This document shows positions 14,892-43,462 of a stretch of DNA of 64,000 nucleotides, in pieces. Both the position numbers and the translations under genes were made by a program. The stretch spans positions 13,201 to 77,200 of the forward strand of contig JAWLCE010000005.1 of assembly GCA_041687335.1 (NCBI GenBank), in the 5' to 3' direction. Every line of letters begins with the position of its first letter. Positions within the stretch are counted from its first letter, which is position 1. The notes beneath the pieces are model-generated. The model did not search any database and was not told where the DNA came from. It saw nothing but the letters and a program-made list of their open reading frames with translations. The DNA is from Sumerlaeia bacterium. Lineage in GTDB: Bacteria; Sumerlaeota; Sumerlaeia; MVZB01.

Positions 14892-17800
14892 ATGGAAAAC
14901 AGTCCGCACGTCATAGGGATCGATCTCGGGACAACCAACTCGGTGGTCGCGGTGGTCGATTCGGGCGAACCCAACGTGATCAACAACCAGGAGGGGCGCA
15001 GCAAGACCCCCTCGGTGGTGGCCTTTGACGAACAAGGCGGGGTCACGGTCGGAGAGATCGCGCTGCGACAGGGGGCGACCCAGCCGCGGCGGACGATCTG
15101 TTCGGTCAAGCGCTTCATCGGCCGGATGCACGACGAGATTTTGGATGAGGGGGACCTGGTCTCGTTTGAGCTGACCGCCGACGAGGCCGGACGCTCGGCG
15201 ATCCGGGTGGACGAGAGGGTTTACCTGCCCGAGCAGATTTCGGCGCAGGTGCTGGCCAAGCTCAAGCAGGCGGCGGAGGATTACCTGGGCCAGCGCGTGG
15301 GGCGGGTGGTGCTGACCGTGCCGGCTTATTTCGACGACAACCAGCGGCAGGCGACGATGGAGGCGGCCAAGCTGGCCGGGCTGGAAGTGCTGCGCCTGCT
15401 CAACGAGCCGACGGCGGCGGCGATGGCCTATGGGTTGGGGCGGGGCGGACGCGAGACGGTGGCGGTCTATGACTTCGGCGGCGGCACGTTCGACTTCAGC
15501 GTGCTGGACATCGAGGACAAGACCTTTGAGGTCTTGTGTTCCAACGGCAACAGCCGGCTGGGCGGGGATGATCTCGACACGGCATTGACCGACTGGCTGG
15601 CGGACCGTTTCCAACAGGTCCACGGGATCGACCTGCGCGAGGATCCGATGACGTTGCGGCGGCTGCGGGATGCGGCCGAGCGGGCCAAGTGCGAGTTGTC
15701 GAGCGCGTTTGAGACGCTGGTCAGCCTGCCGTTCATCGCCTACGTGGACGGGGTGCCGATTCACCTTGAGGAGCGGATCGAGCGGGAGGTGTTCGAGGAG
15801 CTGGCCGAGCCGTATGTGCGTGAGACGATCGAATGCTGCGTGCGGGGGCTGCGCCAGGCGCGGGTGCGCAAGGAGGACATCACGCGCGTGATCCTGGTGG
15901 GCGGCTCGACGCGGATTCCGCTGGTGCAGGACAGCGTGGAGGACTTTTTCGGGCTGGCGCCGTTCAAGGGCATCAACCCCGACGAGATCGTGGCGCTGGG
16001 GGCGGCGATCCAGGGCGCGGTGATGAACGGTGAGCTGGAGGAGGTCGTGCTGCTGGACGTGACGCCCCACACGCTGGGGATCGAGCTGCGCGGCAACCGG
16101 CGCTCGATGCTGGTGGAGAAGAATGCGACGATCCCGATCAAGGTCCACAAGACGTTCAGCACAACCGAAGACCACCAGACCTTTGTCAACATCCACGTTT
16201 TGCAGGGCGACAGCGACAAGGCCAATGAGTGCCGGAGTCTGGGGCGGTTCACGCTTTCGGGGATCGAGGATGCGCCGGCGGGGGTGCCGCGCATCCGGGT
16301 AACCTTTTTCATCAATGCCGACGGCATCGTGGAGATTTCGGCGGCGGACTTGGCGAGCGGGGCCGAGCGCTCGCTGGTGATCAGCCATGCCTACCTGAAT
16401 TCGGACCAGCGCCAGAAGACTCAGGGTGAGGGGCGGCGCAAGCGGCGGCGGCGGCGGGCGATCATGGAATCGTCCGACGGCAGCGGTGAGCTGGCGCCGG
16501 TGCGCGCGCGGCGGGAGTCGACCGAGGCGCGCCGGCGTGATCCGGCCGCCACGGGATCGGCCGGCGGCGGGGCGACCGGCACGCATGTGAATTTCGCAAT
16601 GATCCACGGGGACACGGAACCGCAGCCGGTGCCGCGCCAGCCGGCGCGCAGCCGGGAGGCTGACGAACGGCAGGTGGTTGAAGCGGCGGTGGCCGGCCCG
16701 AGCGCGCCCGCAACCGAGGCCGCTGATTCAACCATCGGGCACGGGCCGCGGCGGGCGATGATACCGGCCGCGGCGGCGTTGACGCAGACGGTGACGGCGC
16801 CGCCGGCGGCCCGGGGGACGGTGCCCGCGGGTTCCCCGCCGGCAATGCCCACGCCACCGGCCACGCCCGTGACCATGCCGGTGGCTGCGTCCGCGGCGAC
16901 GCCGGTGGCCGCCGATGTGGCCCCGCGTGAGGAATTGCTTGCCGAGCTGCCGGCGGAGTTGCCGGCTGAGCTGGCGCCGATGGTGGAGATCCTGCTGGAG
17001 GGGCGGCGCGACGAGAACGCCTGCCGGCTGTATCGGGACGCACGGGCGCAGTTCGCCGAGTTCTGCCAGCAGCGCTTCGACCAGATATCACTCCAGCTTC
17101 TACTGGCGCGCCTGCACCTGTTTGCCGGCGAGGCCGAGAGCTCGCTGGAGGTGCTCGAGCAGTTGCGGATGCGGCCGGAGGCCCCGACCGAGCGGATGCT
17201 GGCGGCGTATGATGAATTCTGTGCCCAAGCCCCCGATAGCCTGGCCGGCCGCGGCGAGCGAGCCGAACTGGCCGAGCAGGCGGGGCAGATCGAGCGGGCG
17301 ATCGCGGACCTTGAGCTGCTGGTGGAGCCCGAGGACGCGGACCCGGCCCTGCTGGCGCGGCTGGCGGGACTCTACCGGCGCGCGCTGGGGGATCACTCCG
17401 ACGCGGCGATCCAGTTCAAGCTGGTGGGGCTGCATCTGCGCCTGCGCGACATCGACGCGGCGATCACGCAGCTCCAGCAACTGGTGACGCTGCCCGACCA
17501 CCGGCATCGGGCCAACAAGCTGCTGGGCCTGTGCTTCTGGCAGAAAGGGATGCGCCACCTGGCCTGGCAGAAGCTGCGCACGCTGCCCATCAATGACGAG
17601 ATGAAGGACATCCTCTACCGGTTGGCCGACGACATGGACCTGCACGACGAGCTGCTGCACGCCAAGTATGCGCTGGAGCGGATCTATGAGGTCGACATCC
17701 AGTATCGGGACGTGGGGGAGCGGCTGAAGAAGCTTTCGTACCGGCTCGAGCTGCAGCGCGATGGGCGCTACGGCAGCACCCCGGCGCCGCGAACGGGGCT

Positions 17801-18599
17801 GGGCACGACGCTGGAGTCGGGGGGCGAGCTGGGTGGGCGCTTCGAGATCATCGAGGAGATCAACCGCGGCTCGATGGGGATCGTCTACAAGGCGCGCGAC
17901 AAGATATTGGATGAGATCGTGGCGATCAAGGTGCTCAATGACTTCCTCTGCGCCGACCAGGAGGCGATCGAGCGGTTCAAGCAGGAGGCGCGCTCATCGC
18001 GGCGGCTGACCCACCAGAACATCGTGCGGATCCACGACCTGTTCGACCTGGACGGCAAAAAGTTCATCTCGATGGAGTTCATCGAGGGGGACAACTTGAA
18101 GACGCTGCTGGCGCGCAACGTGACCTTCAGCGACGACATCGCGCTGACCTACCTGTTCCAGATTTGCGAGGGGCTGGCCTATGCCCACCGGCTGCATGTG
18201 GTCCACCGCGACATCAAGCCGGCCAACATCATGATCACGGCGCGCAATCAGGTGAAGATCACCGACTTTGGCATTGCCAAGCTGCTGACCGAGCACCAGA
18301 CCAAGACCGGGACGCTGATCATGGGCACGCCGCTCTACATGGCGCCTGAGCAGATCGAGGGCGGGCGGATCGACCATCGCTGCGACATCTATGCCCTGGG
18401 GATCATGCTTTGGGAGATGGTGATGGGGCACCCGCCGTTCAATGAGGGCAACATCGAGTATCAGCACGTGCACAGCCCGGTGCCCGAAATCACCCGCACG
18501 GTCAGCGAAAAGCTGCGCAAGATCATTCTGCACTGCGTGAAGAAGAGGCCGGAGGAACGATTCCAGACGGCGGAAGAGATTTTGACACGGATTGTCTGA
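14892..18599 (+). CDS. Hsp70-like ATPase / TPR-like region / Hanks-type Ser/Thr protein kinase fusion protein
   Basis: Residues 1-505 carry the Hsp70 NBD signatures (IGIDLGTTNS, DFGGGTFD, LVGGSTRIP) and an SBD-beta segment, with no helical lid. A Pro/Ala-rich linker and a helical repeat region follow. The C-terminal 256 aa (about 17829-18599) carry kinase motifs VAIK, HRDIKPAN, DFG and APE. Confidence 0.85.
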   Translation: MENSPHVIGIDLGTTNSVVAVVDSGEPNVINNQEGRSKTPSVVAFDEQGGVTVGEIALRQGATQPRRTICSVKRFIGRMHDEILDEGDLVSFELTADEAGRSAIRVDERVYLPEQISAQVLAKLKQAAEDYLGQRVGRVVLTVPAYFDDNQRQATMEAAKLAGLEVLRLLNEPTAAAMAYGLGRGGRETVAVYDFGGGTFDFSVLDIEDKTFEVLCSNGNSRLGGDDLDTALTDWLADRFQQVHGIDLREDPMTLRRLRDAAERAKCELSSAFETLVSLPFIAYVDGVPIHLEERIEREVFEELAEPYVRETIECCVRGLRQARVRKEDITRVILVGGSTRIPLVQDSVEDFFGLAPFKGINPDEIVALGAAIQGAVMNGELEEVVLLDVTPHTLGIELRGNRRSMLVEKNATIPIKVHKTFSTTEDHQTFVNIHVLQGDSDKANECRSLGRFTLSGIEDAPAGVPRIRVTFFINADGIVEISAADLASGAERSLVISHAYLNSDQRQKTQGEGRRKRRRRRAIMESSDGSGELAPVRARRESTEARRRDPAATGSAGGGATGTHVNFAMIHGDTEPQPVPRQPARSREADERQVVEAAVAGPSAPATEAADSTIGHGPRRAMIPAAAALTQTVTAPPAARGTVPAGSPPAMPTPPATPVTMPVAASAATPVAADVAPREELLAELPAELPAELAPMVEILLEGRRDENACRLYRDARAQFAEFCQQRFDQISLQLLLARLHLFAGEAESSLEVLEQLRMRPEAPTERMLAAYDEFCAQAPDSLAGRGERAELAEQAGQIERAIADLELLVEPEDADPALLARLAGLYRRALGDHSDAAIQFKLVGLHLRLRDIDAAITQLQQLVTLPDHRHRANKLLGLCFWQKGMRHLAWQKLRTLPINDEMKDILYRLADDMDLHDELLHAKYALERIYEVDIQYRDVGERLKKLSYRLELQRDGRYGSTPAPRTGLGTTLESGGELGGRFEIIEEINRGSMGIVYKARDKILDEIVAIKVLNDFLCADQEAIERFKQEARSSRRLTHQNIVRIHDLFDLDGKKFISMEFIEGDNLKTLLARNVTFSDDIALTYLFQICEGLAYAHRLHVVHRDIKPANIMITARNQVKITDFGIAKLLTEHQTKTGTLIMGTPLYMAPEQIEGGRIDHRCDIYALGIMLWEMVMGHPPFNEGNIEYQHVHSPVPEITRTVSEKLRKIILHCVKKRPEERFQTAEEILTRIV

Positions 18600-18601
18600 C
18601 C

Positions 18602-18967
18602 ATGAGCCATAGCGATACCAAATACCAACTGCTGGCCGATTTCAACCCGCACCCGGACATCTGCGTGCGGCTGCTCGAGCGGCATGGGCCGTCGTTGACG
18701 GCGACCCTGGCGGGCCAGTTGCGGCTGGAAGGGTCGGCCCGCCTGCTCGAGTTCCTCGTGGAGCAGTTCGATCGCCACCATCCGCAGTGTCTGATTTTGG
18801 ACTGCGCCGAGTTGAGCTTCGTGGACAGCCAGGGATTATCGATGCTGTTGCAACTGCACAAGGCGTGCCGCAACGTGGGGATCGAGCTGAGCCTGCGCGA
18901 CCCCAACCCCTTCCTGCGCGACCTCTTGCGACTGACGCGGATTGACACCTACTTCCACATTTACTGA
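18602..18967 (+). CDS. STAS domain protein (anti-sigma factor antagonist-like, SpoIIAA/RsbV family)
   Basis: 121 aa with the conserved phospho-acceptor serine context ELSFVDSQGLSML. The ATG lies 3 nt after the kinase stop, so the two genes are likely co-transcribed. Confidence 0.8.
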   Translation: MSHSDTKYQLLADFNPHPDICVRLLERHGPSLTATLAGQLRLEGSARLLEFLVEQFDRHHPQCLILDCAELSFVDSQGLSMLLQLHKACRNVGIELSLRDPNPFLRDLLRLTRIDTYFHIY

Positions 18968-19090
18968 TCATCAATTCTTGCGCCGGCAGGGAACGCCAGC
19001 CCCAGTTCCTAGTTCCGCCTTCAGGCGGTAGGGGCATGCCAACTTCTTCAGTATGTGTTTAAGCGTAAAAAGGGCGACATGGTCTACCCC

Positions 19091-19206
19091 TGTGGCTGCC
19101 ACTGTGTCGCCCCCTCAGGGCTCTGATAATTTGGCCGGAATACCCTGGGTTACGCTTCGCTCACCCAGGGCTTTTGAACTGTGCCCACCCTTTCAGGGTG
19201 GAATGC
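19091..19206 (+). repeat. structured intergenic repeat, family B (three-hairpin element), copy 2
   Basis: About 88% identical to 6636..6750. Contains hairpins gcccYYtcagggc, cagggtta-N8-taaccctg and caccctttcagggtg. Confidence 0.7.
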
Positions 19207-19361
19207 GGTGACATACCCGCCACGCTAAAGACATACCACGCTTGGCCACCATATGTTGCCGCTGCCGCGGCTTTGGTTTCGAGTGGTGTTGCCCGAATAT
19301 TGATGCAAAGTGGCGGGGGGTCTGGCTATGCTGGGGTTGGATTTTCTGCAAGGAGAAATGG

Positions 19362-19979
19362 ATGAACCGGCCCATCGATACCCAGCGGTTGCGCCAGCTT
19401 GAAGAGCAGGCGCAGGAGTGCGAGCGCGAGGATGATTACGCCAGCGCGCTGGAAATCTATGAGGCGATCGACCGCGAGGGCTGGGCCCAGGTCAAGCACC
19501 TGCTGGCGATGGGGGAATGCTGCATGCGGATCCGCCAGCGCCAGAGTGCACGGCGGTATTGGACGCGGGCCTGGGAGCTTGACCCGGGCCAGAGTCGCGC
19601 CAGTGAGCTGCTGGACCGATTCTTTCCTGGCTGGGAGAAGGTCGCGGCCAGCACTCAGAGCCCGATTCCGCCAACGCCGGCCGTGAAGGCGGGCGGGCTG
19701 AGCGTGGAGATGATCCAGCCGACCAAACCCGCTCCCGCGCCGGCGCGGGCGGCCGCCCCGCCGGCGCCCGAGCAAGATTGGCTGGCAAATCAGCTGAGCG
19801 GCCAGAGTAAAATGATCCCCAACAATGGCGGGCCGGCCGGGCAGGACGTTGGTGAACCGCAGCCGGTGGAGGCGCGGGTGGAAAACCGCGTCAACTGGAG
19901 CTACATCATGGCGGATGCCAGCGAGGAAGCGGCCTCCTCGCGGCGCAAGACGCCTCCCCCCGCCCGGGCTGCCCAATGA
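19362..19979 (+). CDS. hypothetical protein with a TPR-like N-terminus and a disordered Pro/Ala-rich C-terminus
   Basis: ATG at 19362 preceded by aggagaa. The upstream part of the track ORF (Cys/Trp-rich) lies in the repeat region and is rejected. Confidence 0.5.
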   Translation: MNRPIDTQRLRQLEEQAQECEREDDYASALEIYEAIDREGWAQVKHLLAMGECCMRIRQRQSARRYWTRAWELDPGQSRASELLDRFFPGWEKVAASTQSPIPPTPAVKAGGLSVEMIQPTKPAPAPARAAAPPAPEQDWLANQLSGQSKMIPNNGGPAGQDVGEPQPVEARVENRVNWSYIMADASEEAASSRRKTPPPARAAQ

Positions 19980-20010
19980 TCCTGAAGATGAGCTTCAAAA
20001 GGAACGCATC

Positions 20011-22146
20011 ATGATGAATGGGTGGCGGCCCTTTGGGTTGTGTTTTGTATTGTGGCTGGGCGTGGCGGCTTGTGCCTTTGCCGAGGATGGTTATGATCTT
20101 TGGCTGCGCTACCGGCCGATCGAGGACCCCGAGCGGCTCGAGGCCGTCGGCGAGCTTTTTCAGGGTTTGCTGATCGAGGGGCGGTCGGCGACGCTGGCGG
20201 CGGCGGGCGAGGAACTGCGGTTGGGGCTGGGGGGGCTGCTTGGGCGTGAGCTGCCGCCGGCGGAGCGCGCGGCGGGCGAGGGGCTGCTGATTGCCGGCAC
20301 GCCGGCGGACTCGCCGCTGATTGCGCGGCTGGGGCTGGATCAGCGGTTGGCCGAGGTCGGGACCGAAGGGTTTTTGATCTTCTCGCTGACGGTCGAGGGG
20401 CGGCCGGCGACGGTCATCGCGGCCAACGAGCAGATCGGCGTCCTCTATGGTGCGTTTCACCTGCTGCGGCTGGTCCAGACCGGCGAGGAGCTGGCCGGGC
20501 TGAGGATCGCCACGGCGCCGCGCATCGGCATCCGGATGCTCAACCACTGGGACAACGTCACGCCGCGGCCGAGCGCGGGAACCGACCCGAGCGGGACGGT
20601 GACGCGGGGCTACGCGGGCGCCTCGATCTGGAACTGGGACGAGTTGCCGGGCCGGATCGACCCACGGATGATCGACTACGCGCGCGCCAATGCCTCATTG
20701 GGGATCAACGGGACGACTCTCAACAATGTCAATGCGGAGGCGCTCAGCCTGAGCGCGGAGTATCTGGCGAAGGCGGCGGCGCTGGCCAATGCCTTCCGGC
20801 CTTACGGCATCCGGGTTTATTTGAGCGCGCGTTTCACCGCGCCGATGGAGCTGGGAGGACTCAAGACGGCGGACCCGCTGGATGCGGGGGTTCAGGCCTG
20901 GTGGCGGGCCAAGGCCGACGAGATTTATAGTCTGATCCCGGACTTTGGCGGCTTTGTGATCAAGGCGAACTCGGAGGGGCAGCCGGGGCCGGAAGATTAT
21001 GGGCGCAGCCATGTGGATGGGGCGCAGTTATTGGCCGATGCGCTGGCGCCCCACGGCGGGGTGGCGATCTGGCGGGCGTTCGTCTATGACGGCGTGGCCC
21101 AGGGGGAGGGTCGCCCCGACCGGATCACGCAGTCGTATGATGCCTTCAAGCCGCACGACGGGCAGTTCCGCCCCAACGTGTTCGTGCAGGTCAAGAGCGG
21201 GCCGTTGGATTTCCAGCCGCGCGAGCCGGTTCATCCGCTGTTTGGGGCGATGCCGCGCACCCCGCTGATGATGGAGTTCCAGATTACGCAGGAGTACCTT
21301 GGCCAGTCCAACTTCCTGGCCTATCTGGGGACGATGTGGCAGGAGATTTTGAGTTTCGACACGCACGCGCGCGGGGCGGGCTCGACGGTGGGTTGCGTGA
21401 TCGACGGCAGCCTCGACGGCCAGAGCCGGACGGGCATTGCCGGGGTGGCCAATATCGGGCGCGACCGCAACTGGTGCGGGCATTTGTTTGGGCAGTCCAA
21501 CTGGTATGGCTTCGGGCGGCTGGCGTGGGACCACGAGCTGGACAGCCGGGTGATCGCCGAGGAGTGGACGCGCATGACCTTCGGCAATGACCCGGAGGTG
21601 GTGGCGACGGTGGTCGGGATGATGATGGATTCATGGGAGATCGTCGTGGACACCAAGACGCCGCTGGGGTTGCCGATCATGTGCGAGCGCGGGAACCATT
21701 ACGTGCCGGCGCCGCAGATCCGGCAGGATTATCACCGGGCAACCGCCGACGCGATCGGGTATGACCGCACCCGCGGCGGGAGCAAGGCGGTGGACCAGTA
21801 TCATCAGCCGCATGCCGACCGCTTCAACCATCTGGCGACATGCCCGGAGAAATATCTGCTCTGGTTTCACCACGTCTCCTGGGACCACCGGATGGCTTCG
21901 GGGCGGACGCTGTGGGAGGAATTGTGCGCGCGTTACGAGGCGGGCGCGGAGGGGGCGGTCGAACTGGCGCGGCGCTGGGAAGGCCTGCGCGGCCGGATCG
22001 ACGATGGGCGCCACACCGAGGTCGCGGCGAAGCTGGAGGTGCAGCAGCGCGACGCCGCGCTGTGGCGCGACACCTGCCTGGGGTATTTTCAAAAGGTCAG
22101 CGGCCGACCGCTGCCGGCGAGCCGGAACCGTTCAATTCCGCAGTAA
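20011..22146 (+). CDS. alpha-glucuronidase, GH67 family, secreted
   Basis: Signal peptide (MMNGWRPFGLCFVLWLGVAACAFA). GH67-like blocks IRMLNHWDN and GINGTTLNNVNA. About 711 aa, as expected for this family. Confidence 0.8.
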   Translation: MMNGWRPFGLCFVLWLGVAACAFAEDGYDLWLRYRPIEDPERLEAVGELFQGLLIEGRSATLAAAGEELRLGLGGLLGRELPPAERAAGEGLLIAGTPADSPLIARLGLDQRLAEVGTEGFLIFSLTVEGRPATVIAANEQIGVLYGAFHLLRLVQTGEELAGLRIATAPRIGIRMLNHWDNVTPRPSAGTDPSGTVTRGYAGASIWNWDELPGRIDPRMIDYARANASLGINGTTLNNVNAEALSLSAEYLAKAAALANAFRPYGIRVYLSARFTAPMELGGLKTADPLDAGVQAWWRAKADEIYSLIPDFGGFVIKANSEGQPGPEDYGRSHVDGAQLLADALAPHGGVAIWRAFVYDGVAQGEGRPDRITQSYDAFKPHDGQFRPNVFVQVKSGPLDFQPREPVHPLFGAMPRTPLMMEFQITQEYLGQSNFLAYLGTMWQEILSFDTHARGAGSTVGCVIDGSLDGQSRTGIAGVANIGRDRNWCGHLFGQSNWYGFGRLAWDHELDSRVIAEEWTRMTFGNDPEVVATVVGMMMDSWEIVVDTKTPLGLPIMCERGNHYVPAPQIRQDYHRATADAIGYDRTRGGSKAVDQYHQPHADRFNHLATCPEKYLLWFHHVSWDHRMASGRTLWEELCARYEAGAEGAVELARRWEGLRGRIDDGRHTEVAAKLEVQQRDAALWRDTCLGYFQKVSGRPLPASRNRSIPQ

Positions 22147-22157
22147 AGGAACCGTCG

Positions 22158-23219
22158 ATGAAACTGGGCCTTGGCCTATACCGCCACATGCTGACGGCGG
22201 AGAATTATCGATTCGCGCGCCAGTGTGGCTGCACTCAGATCGTCGCGCACCTGGTCAATTACTTTGACCGCGAGCCACGGCTGCCGGGCGTGGCGCCCAA
22301 CGGCTGGGGGCGGGCGGGCGATCCGGATCGGCTGTGGAGCGAACAGGAGCTGGTCGAACTGCGAGAGGGGATCGAAGCGGAGGGGCTCGAGCTGGCGGCG
22401 ATCGAGAATTTCGACCCGGCCCACTGGCACGACGTGCTGCTGGACGGACCGCGCAAGGCCGAGCAGATGGAGAACATCAAGGAGCTGATCCGGCGGGCGG
22501 GGGCGGCGGGCATCCCGGTGCTCGGGTATAATTTTTCGATCGCGGGGGTCTGGGGGCACGTGCAGGGGCCGTGGGCTCGCGGCGGGGCGGAATCGGTCGC
22601 GTTCCTGGGCGCGGAGGGTCCGGCCGAGGAGGCGATCCCGCAGGGCATGGTCTGGAACATGGTGCATGACGAGGCGGCGCTGGAGACGGGGGCGCCCCAG
22701 CCGCTGGTGAGCCACGAGCAGCTCTGGGAGCGGCTGGAGGGATTCCTGCGGGAGGCGGTGCCGGTGGCCGAACAGGCGGGGGTGCGGCTGGCGGCCCACC
22801 CGGACGACCCGCCGATGCCGACGCTGCGCGGGCAGGCACGGCTGGTTTATCAACCGGGGCTCTACCAGCGGCTGCTTGACATCCGCCCGAGCCGATCCAA
22901 CGCGCTGGAGTTCTGCCTGGGTTCGCTGGCCGAGATGACCGAGGGCGACATCTACGAGACGGTCGAGCAGTATGCGCGCCAGGATGCGATCGCCTACATC
23001 CATTTCCGCAACGTGCGGGGCAAGGTGCCGCACTACCACGAGGTGTTCGTGGACGAGGGGGACGTGGACATGCTGCGCGTGGTGCGGATCCTGCGCGAGT
23101 GCGGTTATGATGGGGTGCTGATCCCGGATCACACCCCGCAGATGACCTGCGGGGCGCCGTGGCACGCGGGGATGGCCTATGCGCTGGGATTCATGCAGGC
23201 GGCGCTGCGGGGGGCGTAA
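22158..23219 (+). CDS. uxuA: mannonate dehydratase
   Basis: VRLAAHPDDPPMP matches the E. coli UxuA block VRMAVHPDDPPRP. Its C-terminus matches the family block DVDMxxVVxxxxExxYxGxxxPDH. RBS aagga precedes the ATG at 22158. Confidence 0.9.
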   Translation: MKLGLGLYRHMLTAENYRFARQCGCTQIVAHLVNYFDREPRLPGVAPNGWGRAGDPDRLWSEQELVELREGIEAEGLELAAIENFDPAHWHDVLLDGPRKAEQMENIKELIRRAGAAGIPVLGYNFSIAGVWGHVQGPWARGGAESVAFLGAEGPAEEAIPQGMVWNMVHDEAALETGAPQPLVSHEQLWERLEGFLREAVPVAEQAGVRLAAHPDDPPMPTLRGQARLVYQPGLYQRLLDIRPSRSNALEFCLGSLAEMTEGDIYETVEQYARQDAIAYIHFRNVRGKVPHYHEVFVDEGDVDMLRVVRILRECGYDGVLIPDHTPQMTCGAPWHAGMAYALGFMQAALRGA

Positions 23220-23259
23220 GGGCAGGTCATAGGATCAAGAGCGAAGGGGATGCAAGAGG

Positions 23260-24054
23260 GTGGATCAGGCAACGTATCAGCAGGTGGGGGAGAAGAGTCA
23301 GTCGCCGTTCCGGCTTGATGGGCAACTGGCTTTGGTGACCGGCGGGGGGACGGGGATCGGGCTGGCGATCGCGCGCGAGATGCTGGCGGCGGGGGCGCGG
23401 GTGGTGCTGACGGGGCGGCGCGAGCAGGTGCTTTGCGAAGCCTGCGACGGGCTGGGCGAGGGGGCGGTGTGGCGGACGCATGACGTGACCGATTACGCGG
23501 GGGCGGGGCCGCTGGTGGCGGAGCTGGAGCGCTCGCTGGGCCCGATCGACATCCTGGTCAACAACGCCGGCATGCACATGAAGAAGGACCCGCTGGCGAC
23601 GGGCGAGGAGGAGTTCGCGCGCGTGGTGGAGACGAACATCATGGGTTCGTTCGCGATGACGCGCCACTGCGCGCGCTCGATGGTGGAGCGCGGCCGCGGC
23701 TCGGTGATCTTCATCACCTCGATGGCGGCGATGTTCGGGCTGCCGCTGGTGCCGGCCTACAGCGCGGCCAAAAGCGGGATGACGGGGCTGATGCAGTCGC
23801 TGGTGATGGACCTGTCGCCGCGCGGGGTGCGGCTCAATGCGATCGCGCCGGGGTTCATCGTGACCGAGATGATGCGTTCGGCGGTCGAGAGTGACCCGGG
23901 GCGCAAGGCGCGCATCCTGGCGCGCACGCCGCAGGGGCGATTTGGCGATCCGGTGGAGGTGGCGCATGCGGCGGTCTTCCTGTCCTCGCCGGCGGCCAGC
24001 TTCATCACGGGTGTGGTGCTGCCGGTTGATGGTGGCATGAACATGGCGTTCTAA
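23260..24054 (+). CDS. SDR family oxidoreductase (KduD/gluconate-5-dehydrogenase-like)
   Basis: Rossmann motif TGGGTGIGLA, NNAG, and the catalytic YxxxK (YSAAK). GTG start at 23260. Confidence 0.8.
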   Translation: MDQATYQQVGEKSQSPFRLDGQLALVTGGGTGIGLAIAREMLAAGARVVLTGRREQVLCEACDGLGEGAVWRTHDVTDYAGAGPLVAELERSLGPIDILVNNAGMHMKKDPLATGEEEFARVVETNIMGSFAMTRHCARSMVERGRGSVIFITSMAAMFGLPLVPAYSAAKSGMTGLMQSLVMDLSPRGVRLNAIAPGFIVTEMMRSAVESDPGRKARILARTPQGRFGDPVEVAHAAVFLSSPAASFITGVVLPVDGGMNMAF

Positions 24055-24074
24055 AGGAGTCACGAGAGAGCAGG

Positions 24075-25073
24075 ATGATGAGCATGACCCGCGGAAGGTT
24101 CCTGGTGGGGCTGCTGGTGGCCGTGGCGGGCGTGGGCTGCGGCGGGCCGGGCTTGTCGCGTCCGGTGACGATCCGTTATGCCACCTCGATCGAGGAGGTT
24201 CACCCGACGGTGACGGCGATGAAGCGCTTCGCGGAGCGGCTGGAGGAGTTGTCGGGTGGTGAGCTGCGGGTGGAAGTGCGGACGCGATTTGGGGCCAATG
24301 GCCACGAGCTGCTCGAGGCGTGCCGGCAGGGACAGATCGACATGGGGGTGGTCACGGCGAGCACGCTGGCGCAGCAGGTGCCGCTGGCCAACATCTTCAC
24401 GATGCCGTTCCTGTTTCGCGACGAGGCGCACCTGGCGGCGGCGATGGCGGACGAGCCGGGGCGGCGGCTGCGCGAGGAGGCGCGGCGCGTGGCGGGGCTG
24501 AGAATTACCGGCTTTTACACCGCAGGCATGCGAAGCATTACCACGCAGGGCGGCCCGATCCGGCGGCCCGAGGACCTGCGTGGGCTCAAGATCCGCGTCA
24601 TGGAGTCGGAGATGATGGTGGAGACGCTGACGGCGATGGGCGCCAGCGGTATCCCGATGAATTATGGCGAAATTTATGGGGCGCTCCAGCGGGGGGAACT
24701 GGACGGCTGGGAGAACAACGCCAACACGATCCTTAACGCGCGGACCATTGAGACCGGCTGCAACCACCTGGCTTGGACGCGCCACCTTGCGATGCCGGAC
24801 CTGGCTTTTGCCTCGCTGGGGTTTTATGAGCGGCTGACGCGGACGCAGCGGGCCTGGCTGGAGCAGGCGATGGCCGAGACGACCGCCGAACAGGGGGAGC
24901 AGTGGCGGCGCAACGAGGCGGAGGCGGTGGCGCAGTTGGAGGCGGCGGGGATGCGCTGCAACGAGGTCGAGCGCGAGGCGTTCGCCGGCCGGATGCAGGC
25001 GCTTTATGAGCGCGCATTCTTGCGTCAGGGTCGCGAGTTTGAGGAATTGTTTCTCCTGATCCGGGAGATGTAA
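24075..25073 (+). CDS. TRAP transporter substrate-binding protein (DctP family), lipoprotein
   Basis: Lipobox (LVAVAGVGCGG) and a DctP-like fold, 332 aa. No DctQ/DctM genes nearby. Confidence 0.8.
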   Translation: MMSMTRGRFLVGLLVAVAGVGCGGPGLSRPVTIRYATSIEEVHPTVTAMKRFAERLEELSGGELRVEVRTRFGANGHELLEACRQGQIDMGVVTASTLAQQVPLANIFTMPFLFRDEAHLAAAMADEPGRRLREEARRVAGLRITGFYTAGMRSITTQGGPIRRPEDLRGLKIRVMESEMMVETLTAMGASGIPMNYGEIYGALQRGELDGWENNANTILNARTIETGCNHLAWTRHLAMPDLAFASLGFYERLTRTQRAWLEQAMAETTAEQGEQWRRNEAEAVAQLEAAGMRCNEVEREAFAGRMQALYERAFLRQGREFEELFLLIREM

Positions 25074-25100
25074 GCCCCGCGCCCCCGAAAGAGGAAGCTG

Positions 25101-25796
25101 ATGGAGCGACCGTGGAAGGATGACACCGAGCTGTTCGGGCTGATCAAGCGCGAGCTGTTTACGGCGGTCGTCGGCGACGTGATGGACCGGCTGGGGCTGA
25201 CCCACCAGTTCCTGCCGCCGGGGATCGGCCCGCTGCGCGAGGACATGGTGGTGGCGGGGCGGGCGATGCCGGTGCTCGAGGCGGATGTCTTCAGCGAGCG
25301 GATCGAGGGCGGGGCGGGGCCGCTGGCCCACAAGCCGTTCGGGCTGATGCTGGAGGCGCTCGACGACCTGAAGCCGGGCGAGGTTTATGTGGCGGCGGGG
25401 GCCTCGCCGCGCTATGCGCTCTGGGGCGAGCTGATGAGCACGCGCGCGCTCAAGCTGGGGTGCGCGGGGGCGGTGGTGGACGGCTACTCGCGCGATACCC
25501 CCGGGGTGCTGCGGCTGAATTTTCCGACCTTCTCGATCGGCCGCTATGCGCAGGACCAGGGGCCGCGCGGCAAGGTGATCGACTTCCGCACGGCGGTGGA
25601 GATCGGCGGCATCCGCATCGAGCCGGGGAACATCATCTTTGGCGATCTGGACGGGGTGCTGGTCATCCCGCGGGCGGCCGAGGAGGAAGTGATCCGGCTG
25701 GCGCTGGAGAAGGCGCGGGGCGAGAAGCTGGTCGCGCGGGCGATCGCCGACGGCATGGGAGCGGTCGAGGCGTTCGAGAAGTTCGGGATTATGTAA
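25101..25796 (+). CDS. RraA-like protein (RraA / 4-hydroxy-4-methyl-2-oxoglutarate aldolase family)
   Basis: 231 aa, RraA-like fold signature (GDVMDRLGL...GELMSTRALKLGCAGAVVDGYSRD). RBS gaggaag precedes the ATG. Confidence 0.8.
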   Translation: MERPWKDDTELFGLIKRELFTAVVGDVMDRLGLTHQFLPPGIGPLREDMVVAGRAMPVLEADVFSERIEGGAGPLAHKPFGLMLEALDDLKPGEVYVAAGASPRYALWGELMSTRALKLGCAGAVVDGYSRDTPGVLRLNFPTFSIGRYAQDQGPRGKVIDFRTAVEIGGIRIEPGNIIFGDLDGVLVIPRAAEEEVIRLALEKARGEKLVARAIADGMGAVEAFEKFGIM

Positions 25797-33189: not shown

Positions 33190-33702
33190 ATGGAACGACC
33201 GCCCGCCGACGCGGCGGTTTACAAGTTGTTCCTGGATAAAAAAATGTTTGAGTTTCTGCGCCGCAAGCCTGCCGCTCCCGCCGAACCGGCTCCCCGTCCG
33301 CCCGATGCGCGCCCGCTGATCGCGTTGATCGAGGACGAGGAAGATATCCTCCAACTGCTGACCATGGCCATGGAGCAGGCCGGCTGGGAGGTGGCCGTGG
33401 CCAGGGACGGCATACTGGGGTTGGAACTGGTGCGCCGGCGCCGGCCCGACCTGGTGGTGCTCGACATCAAGATGCCGCGGATGAATGGATATCAGGTGCT
33501 GACGCGGCTGCATCTGGACTCGACGCTGGTCCGAATCCCGGTGATCGTGATGACGAGCCAGGCGGCCGGGGAAAAGCTCAGCGACGAGGAATGGGCGCGC
33601 CGGCTGCGGGTCAATCGCTTTATTTCGAAGCCGTTTTCGCCCGAACAAATGGTTGAGCTGGTCCGCGAGGAGCTGGGGCGGCCCACCTCACCTCAACCGT
33701 AA
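33190..33702 (+). CDS. single-domain response regulator (CheY-like receiver)
   Basis: Receiver motifs LIALIEDEEDI, the phospho-acceptor VVLDIKMP and the conserved lysine ISKPF. Possible later start at 33244. No cognate kinase adjacent. Confidence 0.8.
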   Translation: MERPPADAAVYKLFLDKKMFEFLRRKPAAPAEPAPRPPDARPLIALIEDEEDILQLLTMAMEQAGWEVAVARDGILGLELVRRRRPDLVVLDIKMPRMNGYQVLTRLHLDSTLVRIPVIVMTSQAAGEKLSDEEWARRLRVNRFISKPFSPEQMVELVREELGRPTSPQP

Positions 33703-40313: not shown

Positions 40314-40477
40314 CATTGCCGTCATTGCACTTGGCGATCCCGCTCCGTCATCTTCTCGGCTGTGCCTCTGCCTGCTGGCATTGTTTAGGTCCTGCCCGCC
40401 GGGTCGGTCTATACTGAACGCTGGCCAAACAAATGGCCTCTCGCGGCTGTCCAATACCAAGGGAAGAGGCCTTTCCA

Positions 40478-40978
40478 ATGAAGCTCTATCTGTTGCGCCA
40501 CGCCGAGGCGGTCGACATCGATGAGGCTGGCGGCGACGATGCGGCTCGCAAGCTGACCGACGCCGGCGAGCAGTCGGCCCGGCGCGCCGCCCGCGGCATG
40601 AAGCGACTGTCGATCCTGCCGGACAAGATTCTGACCAGTCCACTCGTTCGGGCGGCCCGCACCGCCGAATTGACGGCGCGCGAGCTGGGAATCACCAAGC
40701 GCGTGCGCGAGAACGAGCGCCTGGCCTCGGGCGTCCCGGTCGAGGCCATGGCCGAGCTGATCGGCTCACGCAGCGAGGAATCACTCATGCTGGTTGGCCA
40801 CAACCCGGATTTTGAGCTGCTGCTGGCGTGGTTGATATCCCCGGCGGGCGGCGCTCGCGTCAATCTCAAGAAGGGGGCGCTGGCGCTGGTTCAGGTCGAG
40901 CTGCCCCTGCAGCCCGGGGCCGGCATGCTGCGCTGGCTGATGACGCCCGGCCAACTGGCCCAGCTGGACCGAATTTGA
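40478..40978 (+). CDS. sixA: phosphohistidine phosphatase SixA-like (histidine phosphatase superfamily branch 1)
   Basis: RHAEA catalytic Arg-His motif right after the ATG (MKLYLLRHAEAV), plus a later histidine (LVGHNPD). RBS gggaagagg. Confidence 0.75.
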   Translation: MKLYLLRHAEAVDIDEAGGDDAARKLTDAGEQSARRAARGMKRLSILPDKILTSPLVRAARTAELTARELGITKRVRENERLASGVPVEAMAELIGSRSEESLMLVGHNPDFELLLAWLISPAGGARVNLKKGALALVQVELPLQPGAGMLRWLMTPGQLAQLDRI

Positions 40979-41064: not shown

Positions 41065-41679
41065 ATGCTGATCGTGCTGGTGATTTTCTTCGCACCGGCG
41101 ATCAAGCAGATACTTGATAAGCTCAACGAAAGCAAGGGCTCGGCCCCCGAGGTCAGCGAGGCTGACCGTCGGATCCAGGAGGACCTGCGCCGGCGCCTGG
41201 GCGGCGATCAGCCCGAGGCGCCGACTCGCCCGCCCGTGCGCCCCGTGGTGATCCAGCGCCAGGGCGAGCGGCCGGTCGTGGTGACGCCACAGCCGGTTGC
41301 GCCCCCCGAGCCGCCGCGCCGGCCCGTCCCGCGTCAGGCGGCTGCCCCGCCGCCCCCGCAGCGGCGTCAGGCCCCGCTGCCTCCCCAGCCGCGTGAGGCG
41401 CGCCCGGAACCTGATCGCAGCTGGCAAACGCCCCCGCAACCGGCCGCGGCCCAGCTCGCCCACCCGCCATCCGTGCCCACCGTGCCGCGCGAACAATTGC
41501 CCGAGGTGGCCCGCGACGTGATGGTCACCCAGCGGGTGGAACCGGTCCGGACCCGGCGCAAGCGCAACCGCCGGCTGGAGCTGAACCCCACCACACTGGC
41601 GCGGGTGGCGCTGGTCAATGAAATCTGGCAGCCGCCGCTGGCGCTGCGCAAGGATCTGCCCTGGGAACAGAAACTTTGA
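41065..41679 (+). CDS. hypothetical proline-rich membrane-anchored protein
   Basis: N-terminal TM (MLIVLVIFFAPAI), then a 100-aa Pro/Arg/Gln-rich tract and a short basic C-terminal segment. Could instead start at the TTG at 41041. Confidence 0.5.
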   Translation: MLIVLVIFFAPAIKQILDKLNESKGSAPEVSEADRRIQEDLRRRLGGDQPEAPTRPPVRPVVIQRQGERPVVVTPQPVAPPEPPRRPVPRQAAAPPPPQRRQAPLPPQPREARPEPDRSWQTPPQPAAAQLAHPPSVPTVPREQLPEVARDVMVTQRVEPVRTRRKRNRRLELNPTTLARVALVNEIWQPPLALRKDLPWEQKL

Positions 41680-41692
41680 ATCGACATCAAAG

Positions 41693-43462
41693 ATGATGAT
41701 CAATCAGGCTGACCCGCCCTCAAGCCCGCTGGCCGAACAACCGGCCCGGTTGGTCGTGCTGTTGCGCCCGCTCGAGCCGGCGGAGGGGCTGGAGCCGGTC
41801 TATCGGATCGATCGCTTTCCCGCCACGATCGGCCGCCACGAGCTCAACAGCATTGAAATCGCCAATGAGGCGATTTCGCGCTACCACGCCCGGCTGGAGC
41901 GCGTCGGCAGCCAATTCCGCCTGCTCGACCTGCGTTCCTCCAATGGGACCTGGCTCAACGACCGCCGCATCCAGGTGGCGATGATCGACGACAGCGACAT
42001 CGTCTCCTTCGGCAGCGTCAAGTTCATCGTCGCGTTCGAGACCAGCGATGGCCTGCCCATCAGCGGCGGCTCGCCGGGAGGGGTTGAGCGCGACGGCACA
42101 TCCGAGATTCACCTCATCCAGCAGGCCGACCATGCCGAGACAATTCACTCCCAGCCCGCCGACCAGCGCCCGCGCCTGCTGGAACTGGAGGAGGCTCTCC
42201 CCGACGAGCCGGCGCTGGCCGAATCGCGCCGCCGCCTGATCGGGCTGAGCCGTCTGCAGGGGATCCTGCACGCGGCCGCCGGCGATGAGGCGCGCATGAT
42301 GAAGGCCGTGCTCGAGCTGCTTTTTGATGTGCTGCCCGTCAGCCGCGGGGCGATCCTGACGCGCGATATCCTGGACGCTCAGTTGTTTCGGCCGGTCGCG
42401 GTCCGCTCCCGCGCGCGCGGGGGGGGCGACAGCCGGATTGGTATCAGCCGCGGCGTCCTGCAGCGCTGCCTGCGGGAGAAGGTCGCCCTGCTCACACGCG
42501 ACGCCGGTGGCGACCTGCACCTGCGCCCCGACGCCGAGGTCCCCAGCCCATTGCGTTCGGTCATCTGCGCCCCGCTCATCAGCGGCGCCCATGTGCTGGG
42601 CTTCTGCCACCTCGAGACGCTCCAGCCCGAGCGCGCCTTCACGAATGATGACTTGACCTATCTGGTCGGCATCTGCGGCCAGACCTCGGTCCACCTCCAC
42701 AATCTGCGGATGACCCGCGAGAAGATCCAGTCCGAGCGGATGGCGGCCATCGGCCAGACGATCACCGGCATGGCCCACAACATCAAGAACATCCTGCTGC
42801 TGAGCCAGGGCGGCATCGAGATGATGGAAAAATCGATCAACCGCCGCAACTACGAGACCCTCGAGGAAACCTGGGGGCTGGTCCGGCGCGGGCTGGACCG
42901 GATCAACAGCCTGGTCCAGGACATGCTTGAGTATTCGCGCCCGCGCCACGTCGAGCGCGAGCAGATGAACGTCAACAACCTGTTGGCCGAACTGGCGCTG
43001 ACCTTTGCCGATGAGCTGCGCCGCCGCGGCGTCCACATCGAGCTCGACCCCGATCCCGAAGTTCCGGAATTGCCCCTCGACCGGCGCGGTTTGGAGAAGG
43101 CGCTCGTCAACCTGATCGTGAACGCGATCGAGGCCGCCGAGTCACAGGATGGCTGGATCGCCCTCTCCACCCGTATGCTCGAGGACGGCAACCTGGTCAT
43201 TCATGTGCGCGACGGTGGACCGGGCATCCCACGCGAGCTGCTCTCGCGGGTTTTCATCCCCTTCTTCACCACCAAGGGCTCCAAGGGTTCGGGGTTGGGC
43301 CTGCCGATTACTCGAAAAATCATCGAGGACATGGGCGGACGCATCGAGGTCCACTCCGAGGAAGGCCGCGAGACCTGTTTCACGATCACGCTCAATGTCG
43401 GCCCCGATGTCGCCCGCCTCGGTTCCTCCACCGCCGGGCAGCTCGACGAGGAACAGCCATGA
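41693..43462 (+). CDS. FHA domain / GAF domain / histidine kinase (HisKA + HATPase_c) sensor
   Basis: FHA block (RIDRFPATIGRHELNSIEI...SSNGTWLN), a central GAF-like region, an H-box (ITGMAHNIKN), and the N, G1 and G2 boxes (VNLIVNAIEA, DGGPGIP, GSGLGL). ATG at 41693. Confidence 0.85.
   Translation: MMINQADPPSSPLAEQPARLVVLLRPLEPAEGLEPVYRIDRFPATIGRHELNSIEIANEAISRYHARLERVGSQFRLLDLRSSNGTWLNDRRIQVAMIDDSDIVSFGSVKFIVAFETSDGLPISGGSPGGVERDGTSEIHLIQQADHAETIHSQPADQRPRLLELEEALPDEPALAESRRRLIGLSRLQGILHAAAGDEARMMKAVLELLFDVLPVSRGAILTRDILDAQLFRPVAVRSRARGGGDSRIGISRGVLQRCLREKVALLTRDAGGDLHLRPDAEVPSPLRSVICAPLISGAHVLGFCHLETLQPERAFTNDDLTYLVGICGQTSVHLHNLRMTREKIQSERMAAIGQTITGMAHNIKNILLLSQGGIEMMEKSINRRNYETLEETWGLVRRGLDRINSLVQDMLEYSRPRHVEREQMNVNNLLAELALTFADELRRRGVHIELDPDPEVPELPLDRRGLEKALVNLIVNAIEAAESQDGWIALSTRMLEDGNLVIHVRDGGPGIPRELLSRVFIPFFTTKGSKGSGLGLPITRKIIEDMGGRIEVHSEEGRETCFTITLNVGPDVARLGSSTAGQLDEEQP

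What the first reader, a model, noticed from the sequence alone, without database searches (positions are those of the whole stretch)
14892..18967. Hsp70-like ATPase fused to a Hanks Ser/Thr kinase, co-transcribed with a phosphorylatable STAS protein
**Seen in sequence**
- A single 1235-aa ORF begins with a complete Hsp70 nucleotide-binding domain (IGIDLGTTNS, DFGGGTFD, LVGGSTRIP) and a beta-sandwich substrate-binding segment, but has no helical lid.
- It continues through about 190 aa of Pro/Ala/Thr-rich linker and about 280 aa of helical TPR-like sequence.
- It ends in a canonical Hanks kinase (VAIK, HRDIKPAN, DFG, APE).
- Three nucleotides after its stop begins a 121-aa STAS protein whose phospho-acceptor loop (ELSFVDSQGLSML) matches the SpoIIAA/RsbV consensus DLSFMDSSG.

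**Established knowledge**
- STAS anti-sigma antagonists are normally phosphorylated by GHKL-type anti-sigma kinases.
- Hanks-kinase phosphorylation of an anti-anti-sigma has been reported in M. tuberculosis (PknD and Rv0516c), so the pairing is biochemically plausible.

**Inference**
- This looks like a chaperone-gated partner-switching module, in which the Hsp70 ATPase/substrate state would control kinase activity toward the STAS protein.
- No sigma or GHKL anti-sigma gene is in the window, so the output partner is unknown.
Basis: partly seen in the sequence, partly recalled or inferred. Interest (0 to 1): 0.85.

Follow-up and report, generated by a model that had tools for sequence, protein, structure and literature searches.

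The report
Lidless Hsp70 fused to Ser/Thr kinase
One gene in this Sumerlaeota genome joins a DnaK-type chaperone (lacking its lid) to a PknB-like protein kinase and is followed by a small STAS switch protein; the fusion is real and found across the phylum but has never been studied, so it is a candidate bacterial sensor that turns protein-folding state into phosphorylation.

Summary
ORF 14892-18599 (+) encodes 1235 aa in five parts:
- a DnaK-type Hsp70 (NBD, linker, SBDbeta; Pfam E 1e-181; about 55% identical to E. coli DnaK) with no lid;
- a disordered linker of about 175 aa;
- a TPR-like solenoid of 15 helices;
- a short hinge;
- a PknB-like Hanks kinase with every catalytic residue invariant.

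A 121-aa STAS gene starts 2 nt after the stop. Its Ser76 aligns with SpoIIAA's phospho-acceptor Ser.

The fusion is not a misassembly. More than 120 protein clusters and 37 genome loci carry it, and all named ones are Candidatus Sumerlaeota, annotated only as "DnaK".

The STAS gene is an accessory of one sub-clade. Every STAS ortholog found with upstream DNA (11 loci) sits directly after a fusion gene, while about 33 other fusion loci lack it.

No GHKL anti-sigma kinase, PP2C phosphatase or sigma factor is in the window or in orthologous loci. "Partner-switching module" is therefore unproven, and "chaperone-gated" is inference.

A kinase+HSP70 combination was catalogued in 2005 in Pirellula, in reversed order and uncharacterised.

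Verdict: a real, conserved, unstudied variant of a sensor kinase. Interest is moderately high.

The parts
14892..18599 (+). Fusion gene, 1235 aa: lidless Hsp70, disordered linker, TPR-like solenoid, Hanks Ser/Thr kinase
   Evidence: ORF listing and translation. Pfam HSP70 plus Pkinase. More than 120 full-length homolog clusters share the architecture.
14910..16418 (+). DnaK-type Hsp70 module, aa 7-509: NBD, interdomain linker VVLLD (aa 385-389) and SBDbeta; no alpha-helical lid
   Evidence: Pfam HSP70 matches profile positions 1-509 of 599 (E 1e-181). Aligns to E. coli DnaK residues 4-519. Equivalents of DnaK D8, K70, P143, R151, R167, E171, D194, T199 and D201 are invariant or nearly so in 120 homologs. 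The linker and the pocket residues equivalent to I401, F426, Q433, V436 and I438 are conserved.
16434..16457 (+). Conserved poly-Arg tract (aa 515-522, RRKRRRRR), placed where DnaK lid helices A and B would begin
   Evidence: The family consensus here is RRxRRRR. AF2 models one short helix at medium confidence and then disorder.
16434..16958 (+). Disordered Pro/Ala/Thr-rich linker, aa 515-689, hypervariable in length and sequence
   Evidence: The conservation map is gappy and unconserved here. Linker length ranges from 130 to 270 aa among homologs. AF2 pLDDT is 31-41 across the equivalent stretch of ortholog P0002.
16593..16619 (+). Short conserved linear motif inside the linker (aa 568-576, FAMIHGDTE; family pattern F-[AREKS]-[EVM]-[VIL]-x-[DGE]-[DTE])
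   Evidence: It is visible in most of the 45 linkers printed and appears as 'FAxxxD' in the consensus. Its function is unknown. AF2 confidence does not rise over it.
16959..17762 (+). TPR-like alpha-solenoid, aa 690-957: 15 helices in antiparallel pairs; the most conserved part is aa 830-935 (LGLCFWQKG, DILYRLA)
   Evidence: AF2 pLDDT is 94-98. Conservation is shown. A profile of this region also finds Sumerlaeota paralogs of about 1600 aa built as beta-propeller, TPR array and kinase.
17841..18584 (+). PknB-like Hanks Ser/Thr kinase domain, aa 984-1231: K1013, E1032, D1107, N1112, D1125 and activation-loop T1137
18602..18967 (+). Single-domain STAS protein, 121 aa. Candidate phospho-acceptor Ser76 (codon 18827-18829) lies in the invariant motif F[VI]DSQGL. 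The N-terminal tail is rich in Ser/Thr.
   Evidence: Pfam STAS E 1.5e-15. Aligns to SpoIIAA. Ortholog alignment A2. The orthologous subfamily has 24 clusters, always 3' of a fusion gene wherever upstream DNA is available.

Best explanation
**What it is.** A cytoplasmic PknB-like Ser/Thr kinase whose input domain is a lidless DnaK-type Hsp70.

**Shown.**
- The Hsp70 module keeps the ATPase site, the allosteric relay (equivalents of DnaK P143, R151, R167 and the VLLLD linker) and the hydrophobic peptide pocket.
- It has lost the lid.
- The kinase keeps every catalytic residue and a conserved activation-loop Thr.
- The architecture is conserved throughout Candidatus Sumerlaeota.
- In one sub-clade a STAS gene is always directly downstream.

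**Inferred mechanism.**
1. The Hsp70 module binds exposed hydrophobic segments, either of misfolded proteins or of a dedicated client, with the fast kinetics expected of a lidless Hsp70.
2. Client occupancy, or the clustering of several molecules on one client or aggregate, promotes trans-autophosphorylation of the activation loop, as in PknB-type kinases.
3. The TPR solenoid next to the kinase serves as a docking scaffold.
4. In this lineage the active kinase phosphorylates the co-translated STAS protein, either on Ser76 or on its Ser/Thr-rich N-terminal tail.
5. Phosphorylation changes which partner STAS binds. That partner is encoded elsewhere and is not identified.

**Possible second output.** An FHA-GAF histidine kinase (window 41618-43462) has orthologs close to the fusion gene in two other lineages.
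For: **Architecture and residues:**

**The fusion is real and conserved.**
- More than 120 clusters at 43-66% identity.
- 37 genome loci, all Sumerlaeota.
- 26 representatives at 50% identity with E below 1e-30.

**The STAS link.**
- A 2-nt spacer here.
- STAS lies immediately 3' of the fusion in the window, L004/8, L005, L006/7, L009, L047, L049, L050, L055/56, L057 and L058.
- The genes on both flanks differ between these loci.
- The STAS subfamily is sharply bounded: 24 clusters at 95 bits or more, then a drop to 80 bits and lower.
- The DSQG Ser is invariant.
- In an NJ tree, STAS-positive loci span the base of a 32-member clade, which implies an old pairing.

**A modular input-TPR-kinase design.** Paralogs carry the same juxta-kinase TPR and kinase behind a beta-propeller and TPR array.

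**The FHA histidine kinase.** Orthologs lie within about 4 kb of the fusion in L057 and in L013/L014/L023.
Against: - There are no biochemical data.
- AF2 gives no defined contact between the domains (pTM 0.53-0.55) and no confidence rise over the conserved linker motif.
- About 33 fusion loci lack STAS, so STAS cannot be the general output.
- Hanks kinases are not known to target the consensus STAS Ser. PknD uses Thr2 of Rv0516c.
- No phosphatase, anti-sigma factor or sigma factor is nearby.
- No J-domain or GrpE gene is in the window.
- The arch residues of the SBD differ from DnaK (M404 becomes K/R/E; A429 becomes T), so client specificity may be narrow.
- STAS scores 51.3 bits on TIGR00377, just under the 53.45 cut-off.
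Confidence: 0.45

Rival explanations
1. Client-directed kinase. The Hsp70 module is a recruiting device rather than a regulator. It holds unfolded or nascent proteins, or one dedicated client, so that the tethered kinase can phosphorylate them. STAS is one such partner or a modulator.
For: The peptide pocket and the allosteric linker are conserved. A long flexible tether lies between the SBD and the kinase. AF2 predicts no autoinhibitory contact.
Against: It does not explain why a specific small STAS protein is always paired with the fusion in one clade. It does not explain the rigid, conserved TPR next to the kinase. There is no precedent.
Confidence: 0.2
2. The STAS protein is not a substrate of this kinase. 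It is an ordinary anti-sigma-factor antagonist, or another small regulator, served by a GHKL kinase encoded elsewhere. It sits next to the fusion only through gene order inherited within one lineage.
For: Most fusion loci have no STAS. The canonical STAS kinases are GHKL proteins. The consensus Ser with a DSxG motif is what a GHKL kinase would use. The wider genome cannot be inspected.
Against: Adjacency holds in 11 loci down to 35% STAS identity while both flanks change. The spacer is 2 nt. No ortholog of this STAS subfamily was found away from a fusion gene.
Confidence: 0.2
3. Kinase-regulated specialised chaperone. The main activity is Hsp70 chaperoning of a dedicated client, and the kinase tunes it by autophosphorylating the Hsp70 module or the linker.
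For: The Hsp70 part is very strongly conserved, about 55% identical to E. coli DnaK. The DnaK autophosphorylation site T199 is invariant.
Against: Losing the lid weakens client holding. The kinase and the TPR are as conserved as the Hsp70 module. Paralogs replace Hsp70 with other N-terminal modules yet keep the TPR-kinase cassette, which argues that the kinase is the output.
Confidence: 0.1
4. Assembly or frameshift artefact that joins separate dnaK and kinase genes.
For: None, beyond the unusual architecture.
Against: The same continuous ORF occurs in more than 120 clusters from NCBI, JGI, ENA and Logan assemblies and in 37 species-level genomes. Third-position GC across the whole ORF is uniformly coding-like at 0.88.
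Confidence: 0.01

Closest known systems
DnaK (bacterial Hsp70; E. coli DnaK, PDB 2KHO and 4B9Q)
   Same: NBD, hydrophobic interdomain linker and SBDbeta align end to end (E 4e-152, about 55% identity). The catalytic, relay and pocket residues are conserved.
   Different: There is no alpha-helical lid and no C-terminal tail. A poly-Arg tract, a disordered linker, a TPR solenoid and a kinase follow instead. The arch residues are changed.
PknB-type Hanks Ser/Thr kinases (M. tuberculosis PknB, S. aureus PknB/Stk1)
   Different: There is no transmembrane segment and no extracellular PASTA sensor. The sensor is N-terminal, cytoplasmic and an Hsp70.
'Kinase + HSP70' architecture catalogued in Pirellula sp. 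(Krupa & Srinivasan 2005, PMC1262709)
   Same: It has the same two-domain combination in a bacterial Ser/Thr kinase.
   Different: The order is reversed (kinase N-terminal, HSP70 C-terminal) and the phylum is Planctomycetota. No TPR or STAS is described. The paper only lists the architecture and gives no function.
SpoIIAA/RsbV partner-switching modules
   Same: A single-domain STAS protein carries the phospho-acceptor Ser in a DSxG loop.
   Different: There is no GHKL anti-sigma kinase, no PP2C phosphatase and no sigma factor in the window or in orthologous loci. The neighbouring kinase is of Hanks type.
M. tuberculosis PknD and Rv0516c (PMC1847690)
   Same: A Hanks kinase phosphorylates a STAS anti-anti-sigma homolog.
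   Different: PknD targets Thr2 in an N-terminal extension, and Rv0516c has Gly at the consensus site. The PknD sensor is different from the one here.
Eukaryotic Hsp70-gated stress kinases (BiP with PERK/IRE1; Hsp70 with HRI). This comparison rests on established knowledge and was not tested here.
   Same: The concept is shared: Hsp70 client load controls a Ser/Thr kinase that is activated by oligomerisation and trans-autophosphorylation.
   Different: In eukaryotes Hsp70 and the kinase are separate proteins that interact non-covalently. Here they form one polypeptide. The similarity is an analogy, not homology of the system.
Sumerlaeota beta-propeller/TPR-array kinases of about 1600 aa (P0151, P0155, P0154)
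   Same: They share the same juxta-kinase TPR (LGLCxWQK region) and the same kinase cassette.
   Different: The N-terminal input is an FG-GAP/PQQ beta-propeller plus a long TPR array instead of Hsp70.

Membership tests
Hsp70/DnaK | Actin-like NBD with the catalytic residues (DnaK D8, K70, E171, D194, T199, D201) | tested here: met
   All are present in the window protein and invariant or nearly so in 120 homologs.
Hsp70/DnaK | Hydrophobic interdomain linker and SBDbeta with a peptide pocket | tested here: met
   The linker is VVLLD at aa 385-389. Equivalents of I401, F426, Q433, V436 and I438 are conserved. The arch residues differ.
Hsp70/DnaK | Alpha-helical lid and C-terminal tail | tested here: not met
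   The Pfam HSP70 match stops at profile position 509 of 599. The DnaK alignment ends at residue 519. AF2 shows one short helix followed by disorder.
Hsp70/DnaK | Score above the curated NCBIfam DnaK equivalog cut-offs | tested here: inconclusive
   PRK00290 scores 668.8 against a cut-off of 648 and passes. TIGR02350 scores 649 against 822.55 and fails.
Hsp70/DnaK | ATP-driven, J-protein-stimulated client binding | not testable with these tools
   This needs biochemistry. No DnaJ or GrpE gene is in the window.
Hanks-type (PknB-like) Ser/Thr kinase | Pkinase domain scoring above the Pfam cut-off and a kinase fold | tested here: met
Hanks-type (PknB-like) Ser/Thr kinase | Catalytic residues: VAIK Lys, alphaC Glu, HRD Asp, Asn, DFG Asp, APE | tested here: met
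   K1013, E1032, D1107, N1112, D1125 and E1153 are invariant in 70-90 sequences.
Hanks-type (PknB-like) Ser/Thr kinase | Phosphotransfer activity | not testable with these tools
   This needs an in vitro kinase assay.
STAS anti-sigma-factor antagonist (SpoIIAA/RsbV) | STAS domain | tested here: met
   PF01740 gives 57.3 bits against a cut-off of 22.6, and PF13466 gives 56.3 against 29.2.
STAS anti-sigma-factor antagonist (SpoIIAA/RsbV) | Phospho-acceptor Ser at the SpoIIAA Ser58 position | tested here: met
   Ser76 aligns with it and is invariant in 9 orthologs.
STAS anti-sigma-factor antagonist (SpoIIAA/RsbV) | Score above the TIGR00377 cut-off | tested here: not met
   The score is 51.3 bits against a cut-off of 53.45, a narrow miss.
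Partner-switching module | Cognate GHKL (RsbW/SpoIIAB-type) kinase and anti-sigma factor encoded alongside | tested here: not met
   No HATPase_c_2 protein is in the window or in the gene tables of the orthologous loci. The rest of the genome was not available.
Partner-switching module | PP2C (RsbU/SpoIIE-type) phosphatase and a target sigma factor | tested here: not met
   Neither is in the window or in orthologous loci (same calls). The rest of the genome was not available.
Partner-switching module | Phosphorylation-dependent exchange of binding partners | not testable with these tools
   This needs binding assays.

The most novel reading that the evidence does not exclude
A bacterial, single-polypeptide counterpart of the eukaryotic Hsp70-gated stress kinases (BiP-PERK/IRE1, Hsp70-HRI). 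A lidless DnaK module would read unfolded-protein load in the cytoplasm and convert it directly into Ser/Thr phosphorylation. Depending on lineage, that signal would feed a dedicated STAS switch protein and an FHA-containing histidine kinase. This would be a phylum-wide proteostasis signalling pathway of a type not described in bacteria.
Probability: 0.25. Interest if true: 0.85.

Novelty: new variant of a known kind. Interest (0 to 1): 0.6.

Why it matters
Bacteria are known to sense protein misfolding mainly by chaperone titration of transcription factors, as with DnaK and sigma-32. A kinase that carries its own Hsp70 as a sensor would be a different, post-translational route. It would resemble in concept the eukaryotic unfolded-protein and integrated stress responses.

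The family is conserved across an entire, largely uncultivated phylum. Databases label it simply as "molecular chaperone DnaK", so its kinase function is invisible in current annotations.

The strict pairing with a STAS protein in one clade supplies a ready-made candidate substrate. That makes the idea directly testable with recombinant proteins.

Tried and rejected
1. **Docking of the linker motif.** I ran AF2 on a full-length ortholog (P0002, 1186 aa, 90-sequence alignment) to see whether the conserved linker motif docks into the SBD or the TPR groove. The linker pLDDT is uniformly 31-41 and pTM is 0.53, so there is no support.
3. **STAS regulating the neighbouring glycosyltransferase.** I tested the idea that STAS controls the divergently transcribed glycosyltransferase, by analogy with Anabaena All4160 (bioRxiv 10.64898/2026.04.08.717354). 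The upstream GT4/PMT_2-like gene of the window is not orthologous to the upstream genes of other STAS-positive loci, so I dropped the idea.
4. **A link to cell-shape genes.** In L001-3 the fusion follows mreBCD-rodA. This is not general, and neighbour clustering found no universal neighbour.
5. **A hidden STAS in STAS-negative loci.** An iterated HMM found only two unrelated STAS genes, about 4-5 kb away on the opposite strand, in L044 and L048.
6. **Source contig.** An exact look-up of the window protein returned "not on record", so the rest of the source contig could not be examined.
7. **RNA elements.** Rfam and tRNA scans of the 850-nt gap after STAS found nothing there.
8. **Literature.** I searched for a characterised Hsp70-kinase fusion. 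Only the 2005 domain catalogue mentions the combination.

Full report
**Observation**

The window is GC-rich, about 66%. ORF 14892-18599 (+) encodes 1235 aa and ORF 18602-18967 (+) encodes 121 aa. Third-position GC is 0.88 for the first ORF and 0.85 for the second, typical of real genes in this window.

Pfam places HSP70 on aa 7-509, matching profile positions 1-509 of 599 (E 1.1e-181). It places Pkinase on aa 984-1231 (E 2.5e-57) and gives a weak TPR_9 hit. The second protein is a STAS domain (PF01740, E 1.5e-15). The fusion's TGA stop and the STAS ATG are separated by 2 nt.

**The Hsp70 part is DnaK-type, not a generic ASKHA domain**

- phmmer against PDB aligns aa 7-514 to E. coli DnaK residues 4-519 at E 4e-152, about 55% identity.
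- The NCBIfam DnaK model PRK00290 is passed even though the C-terminus is missing (668.8 bits against 648). TIGR02350 is not passed.
- Across 120 homologs, the equivalents of DnaK D8, K70, P143, R151, R167, N170, E171, T173, D194, T199 and D201 are invariant or nearly so.
- After correcting the register, the interdomain linker (VVLLD) is conserved, as are the pocket residues equivalent to I401, F426, Q433, V436 and I438.
- The arch residues differ from DnaK: M404 becomes K/R/E and A429 becomes T.
- The alignment stops where lid helix A starts. A conserved poly-Arg tract (aa 515-522) follows, and then disorder.

**The middle of the protein**

Residues 515-689 are hypervariable in sequence and length, 130-270 aa in homologs. 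They contain one short conserved motif, FAMIHGDTE here and mostly FAE[VI]xxD elsewhere.

AF2 of window aa 690-1235, run with a 70-sequence alignment, gives mean pLDDT 90.7. It shows 15 helices in antiparallel pairs (aa 690-957), a 15-aa low-confidence hinge, and then the kinase.

**The kinase**

**Is the fusion real, and where does it occur?**

- The word-indexed search of 5.8 billion proteins returned more than 120 full-length clusters (1150-1335 aa, 43-66% identity) with HSP70, TPR and Pkinase. Every named one comes from Candidatus Sumerlaeota/Sumerlaeia (formerly BRC1), and most are annotated "molecular chaperone DnaK".
- A scan of 185,579 species genomes, using a pattern from the conserved solenoid (LGLC[FHY]WQK), gave 37 loci. 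All named records among them are Sumerlaeota MAGs, and three are labelled only "bacterium".
- A full HMM scan of 1.84 billion representatives with the solenoid profile found 26 representatives with E below 1e-30.
- Below those lies a second family of about 1600 aa, in which the same juxta-kinase TPR and kinase follow an FG-GAP/PQQ beta-propeller and a long TPR array. One of these proteins is named as Sumerlaeia.
- One distant protein, P0157, has an Hsp70 that retains most of the lid, followed by a kinase.

Misassembly is therefore excluded. The design looks modular: a variable N-terminal input module, then the TPR, then the kinase.

**The STAS gene**

Ser76 aligns with the SpoIIAA phospho-acceptor Ser, and F[VI]DSQGL is invariant in nine orthologs. 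The TIGR00377 score narrowly misses its cut-off, 51.3 bits against 53.45.

*Synteny.* A STAS gene lies immediately 3' of the fusion gene in these loci:
- the window;
- L004/L008, L005, L006/L007 and L009;
- L047;
- L049 and L050, which were found by searching metagenomes with the STAS motif alone;
- L055/L056;
- L057, where STAS is only 35% identical;
- L058.

Two of these loci are incomplete upstream. In L056 and L058 the upstream gene is cut by the contig end and was not identified as a fusion. In L055 the cut 1002-aa gene is taken to be a fusion from its shared context with L005.

A profile search shows a sharply bounded orthologous subfamily: 24 clusters at 95 bits or more, then a drop to 80 bits and lower. 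For nine clusters, the longest-contig size matches that of a fusion cluster.

The genes flanking the pair differ between loci, and the window's upstream GT4/PMT_2-like gene is not orthologous to the upstream genes elsewhere. The conserved unit is therefore the pair itself.

*Absence elsewhere.* About 33 other fusion loci have no STAS within 10 kb, even with an iterated HMM. In an NJ tree the STAS-positive proteins span the base of a 32-member clade, and STAS-negative lineages are nested within it. The pairing is therefore old within that clade and was later lost or relocated. It is not part of the phylum-wide core.

**Partner-switching components**

Pfam scans of all plausible ORFs in the 64-kb window found no RsbW/SpoIIAB-type HATPase_c_2, no PP2C/SpoIIE phosphatase and no sigma factor. 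The gene tables of the orthologous loci show none either.

PknD phosphorylates Rv0516c on Thr2 of an N-terminal extension, and Rv0516c has Gly at the consensus position (PMC1847690). The Sumerlaeota STAS orthologs all start with a short tail rich in Ser/Thr. There are therefore two candidate sites.

**Mechanism**

*Shown.*
- An intact DnaK-type ATPase, linker and pocket, without a lid.
- A flexible tether.
- A rigid TPR.
- An apparently active PknB-like kinase.
- A strictly adjacent STAS protein in one clade.

*Inferred.* The Hsp70 module is the input. Client binding or client-induced clustering drives trans-autophosphorylation, as in PknB-type kinases. STAS is the lineage-specific substrate or partner.

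AF2 does not support a fixed autoinhibitory contact or docking of the linker motif. The gating step rests only on the architecture.

*Rivals.*
- Hsp70 acts as a client-recruiting arm for the kinase.
- The kinase tunes a specialised chaperone.
- STAS is a bystander served by a GHKL kinase encoded elsewhere.

**Literature**

A 2005 survey lists "Kinase + HSP70" in Pirellula, with the kinase N-terminal, and gives no functional data (PMC1262709). A 2021 review of bacterial Hsp70 machines contains no mention of kinase fusions (PMC8215388). Other searches found nothing on this family.

**Verdict**

This is a real, conserved, uncharacterised variant of a Hanks sensor kinase. Its sensor is an Hsp70, and it has a clade-specific STAS partner. 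Calling it a "partner-switching module" is premature.

Noticed in passing
window 40433-40978 (+), 41618-43462 (+), 43459-45036 (+): A three-gene block: a His_Phos_1 protein of SixA-like size, an FHA-GAF-HisKA-HATPase_c histidine kinase, and an unknown 525-aa protein. It is orthologous (49%, 51% and 31% identity) to a block lying 3.1 kb downstream of the fusion-STAS pair in L057. FHA-GAF histidine kinase orthologs (32% identity, full length) also lie about 4 kb upstream of the fusion gene in the STAS-negative loci L013, L014 and L023. An FHA domain reads phospho-Thr, so this kinase may be a second output of the Hsp70 kinase.
   Followed up: partly
window 16434-16457 and 16593-16619: The otherwise hypervariable linker of the fusion protein contains two conserved islands. 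One is a poly-Arg tract that replaces the start of the Hsp70 lid. The other is a short motif, F-x-[EVM]-[VIL]-x-[DGE]-[DTE]. Their roles are unknown, and AF2 gives no confidence rise over them.
   Followed up: partly
L047 8891-10093, L057 6402-7715, L050 604-1305: In three of the more basal STAS-positive loci, an unknown 400-437 aa protein with no Pfam hit lies immediately 3' of the STAS gene (40% identity between L047 and L057). The window has no homolog.
   Followed up: partly
L006 10606-12761, L058 1954-4233: A 4HB_MCP-GAF-HisKA-HATPase_c histidine kinase (50% identity between the two loci) follows the STAS gene in L006/L007 and in L058. This is another recurrent association between a histidine kinase and the pair.
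   Followed up: no
P0151, P0155, P0150, P0198, P0213 (proteins, not in the window): Sumerlaeota also encode proteins of about 1350-1660 aa with an FG-GAP/PQQ beta-propeller, a long TPR array, and then the same juxta-kinase TPR and kinase cassette as the Hsp70 fusion. This suggests a family of kinases with exchangeable input modules.
   Followed up: partly
window 11748-~14500 (-): The divergently transcribed upstream gene fuses a GT4 glycosyltransferase to a PMT_2/ArnT-like membrane domain (about 950 aa). It lies inside a spurious 1619-aa ORF that runs antisense through the start of the Hsp70 gene.
   Followed up: partly
window 18968-19824: A gap of about 850 nt with lower GC lies between the STAS gene and the GH67 alpha-glucuronidase gene. 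It has no convincing ORF. One 245-aa TTG ORF there shows only sub-threshold TPR hits. There is no Rfam match.
   Followed up: partly
window 19825-25796: A glucuronate/uronate utilisation cluster: GH67 alpha-glucuronidase, UxuA-like mannonate dehydratase, a short-chain dehydrogenase, a TRAP DctP solute-binding protein and an RraA-like aldolase. It appears unrelated to the finding.
   Followed up: no
window 49130-53212 (-), 56672-58873 (+), 33190-33702 (+): Three other genes: a large (1360 aa) protein with a sub-threshold YhdP match, a full-length RelA/SpoT (p)ppGpp synthetase/hydrolase, and a stand-alone response-regulator receiver protein.
   Followed up: no
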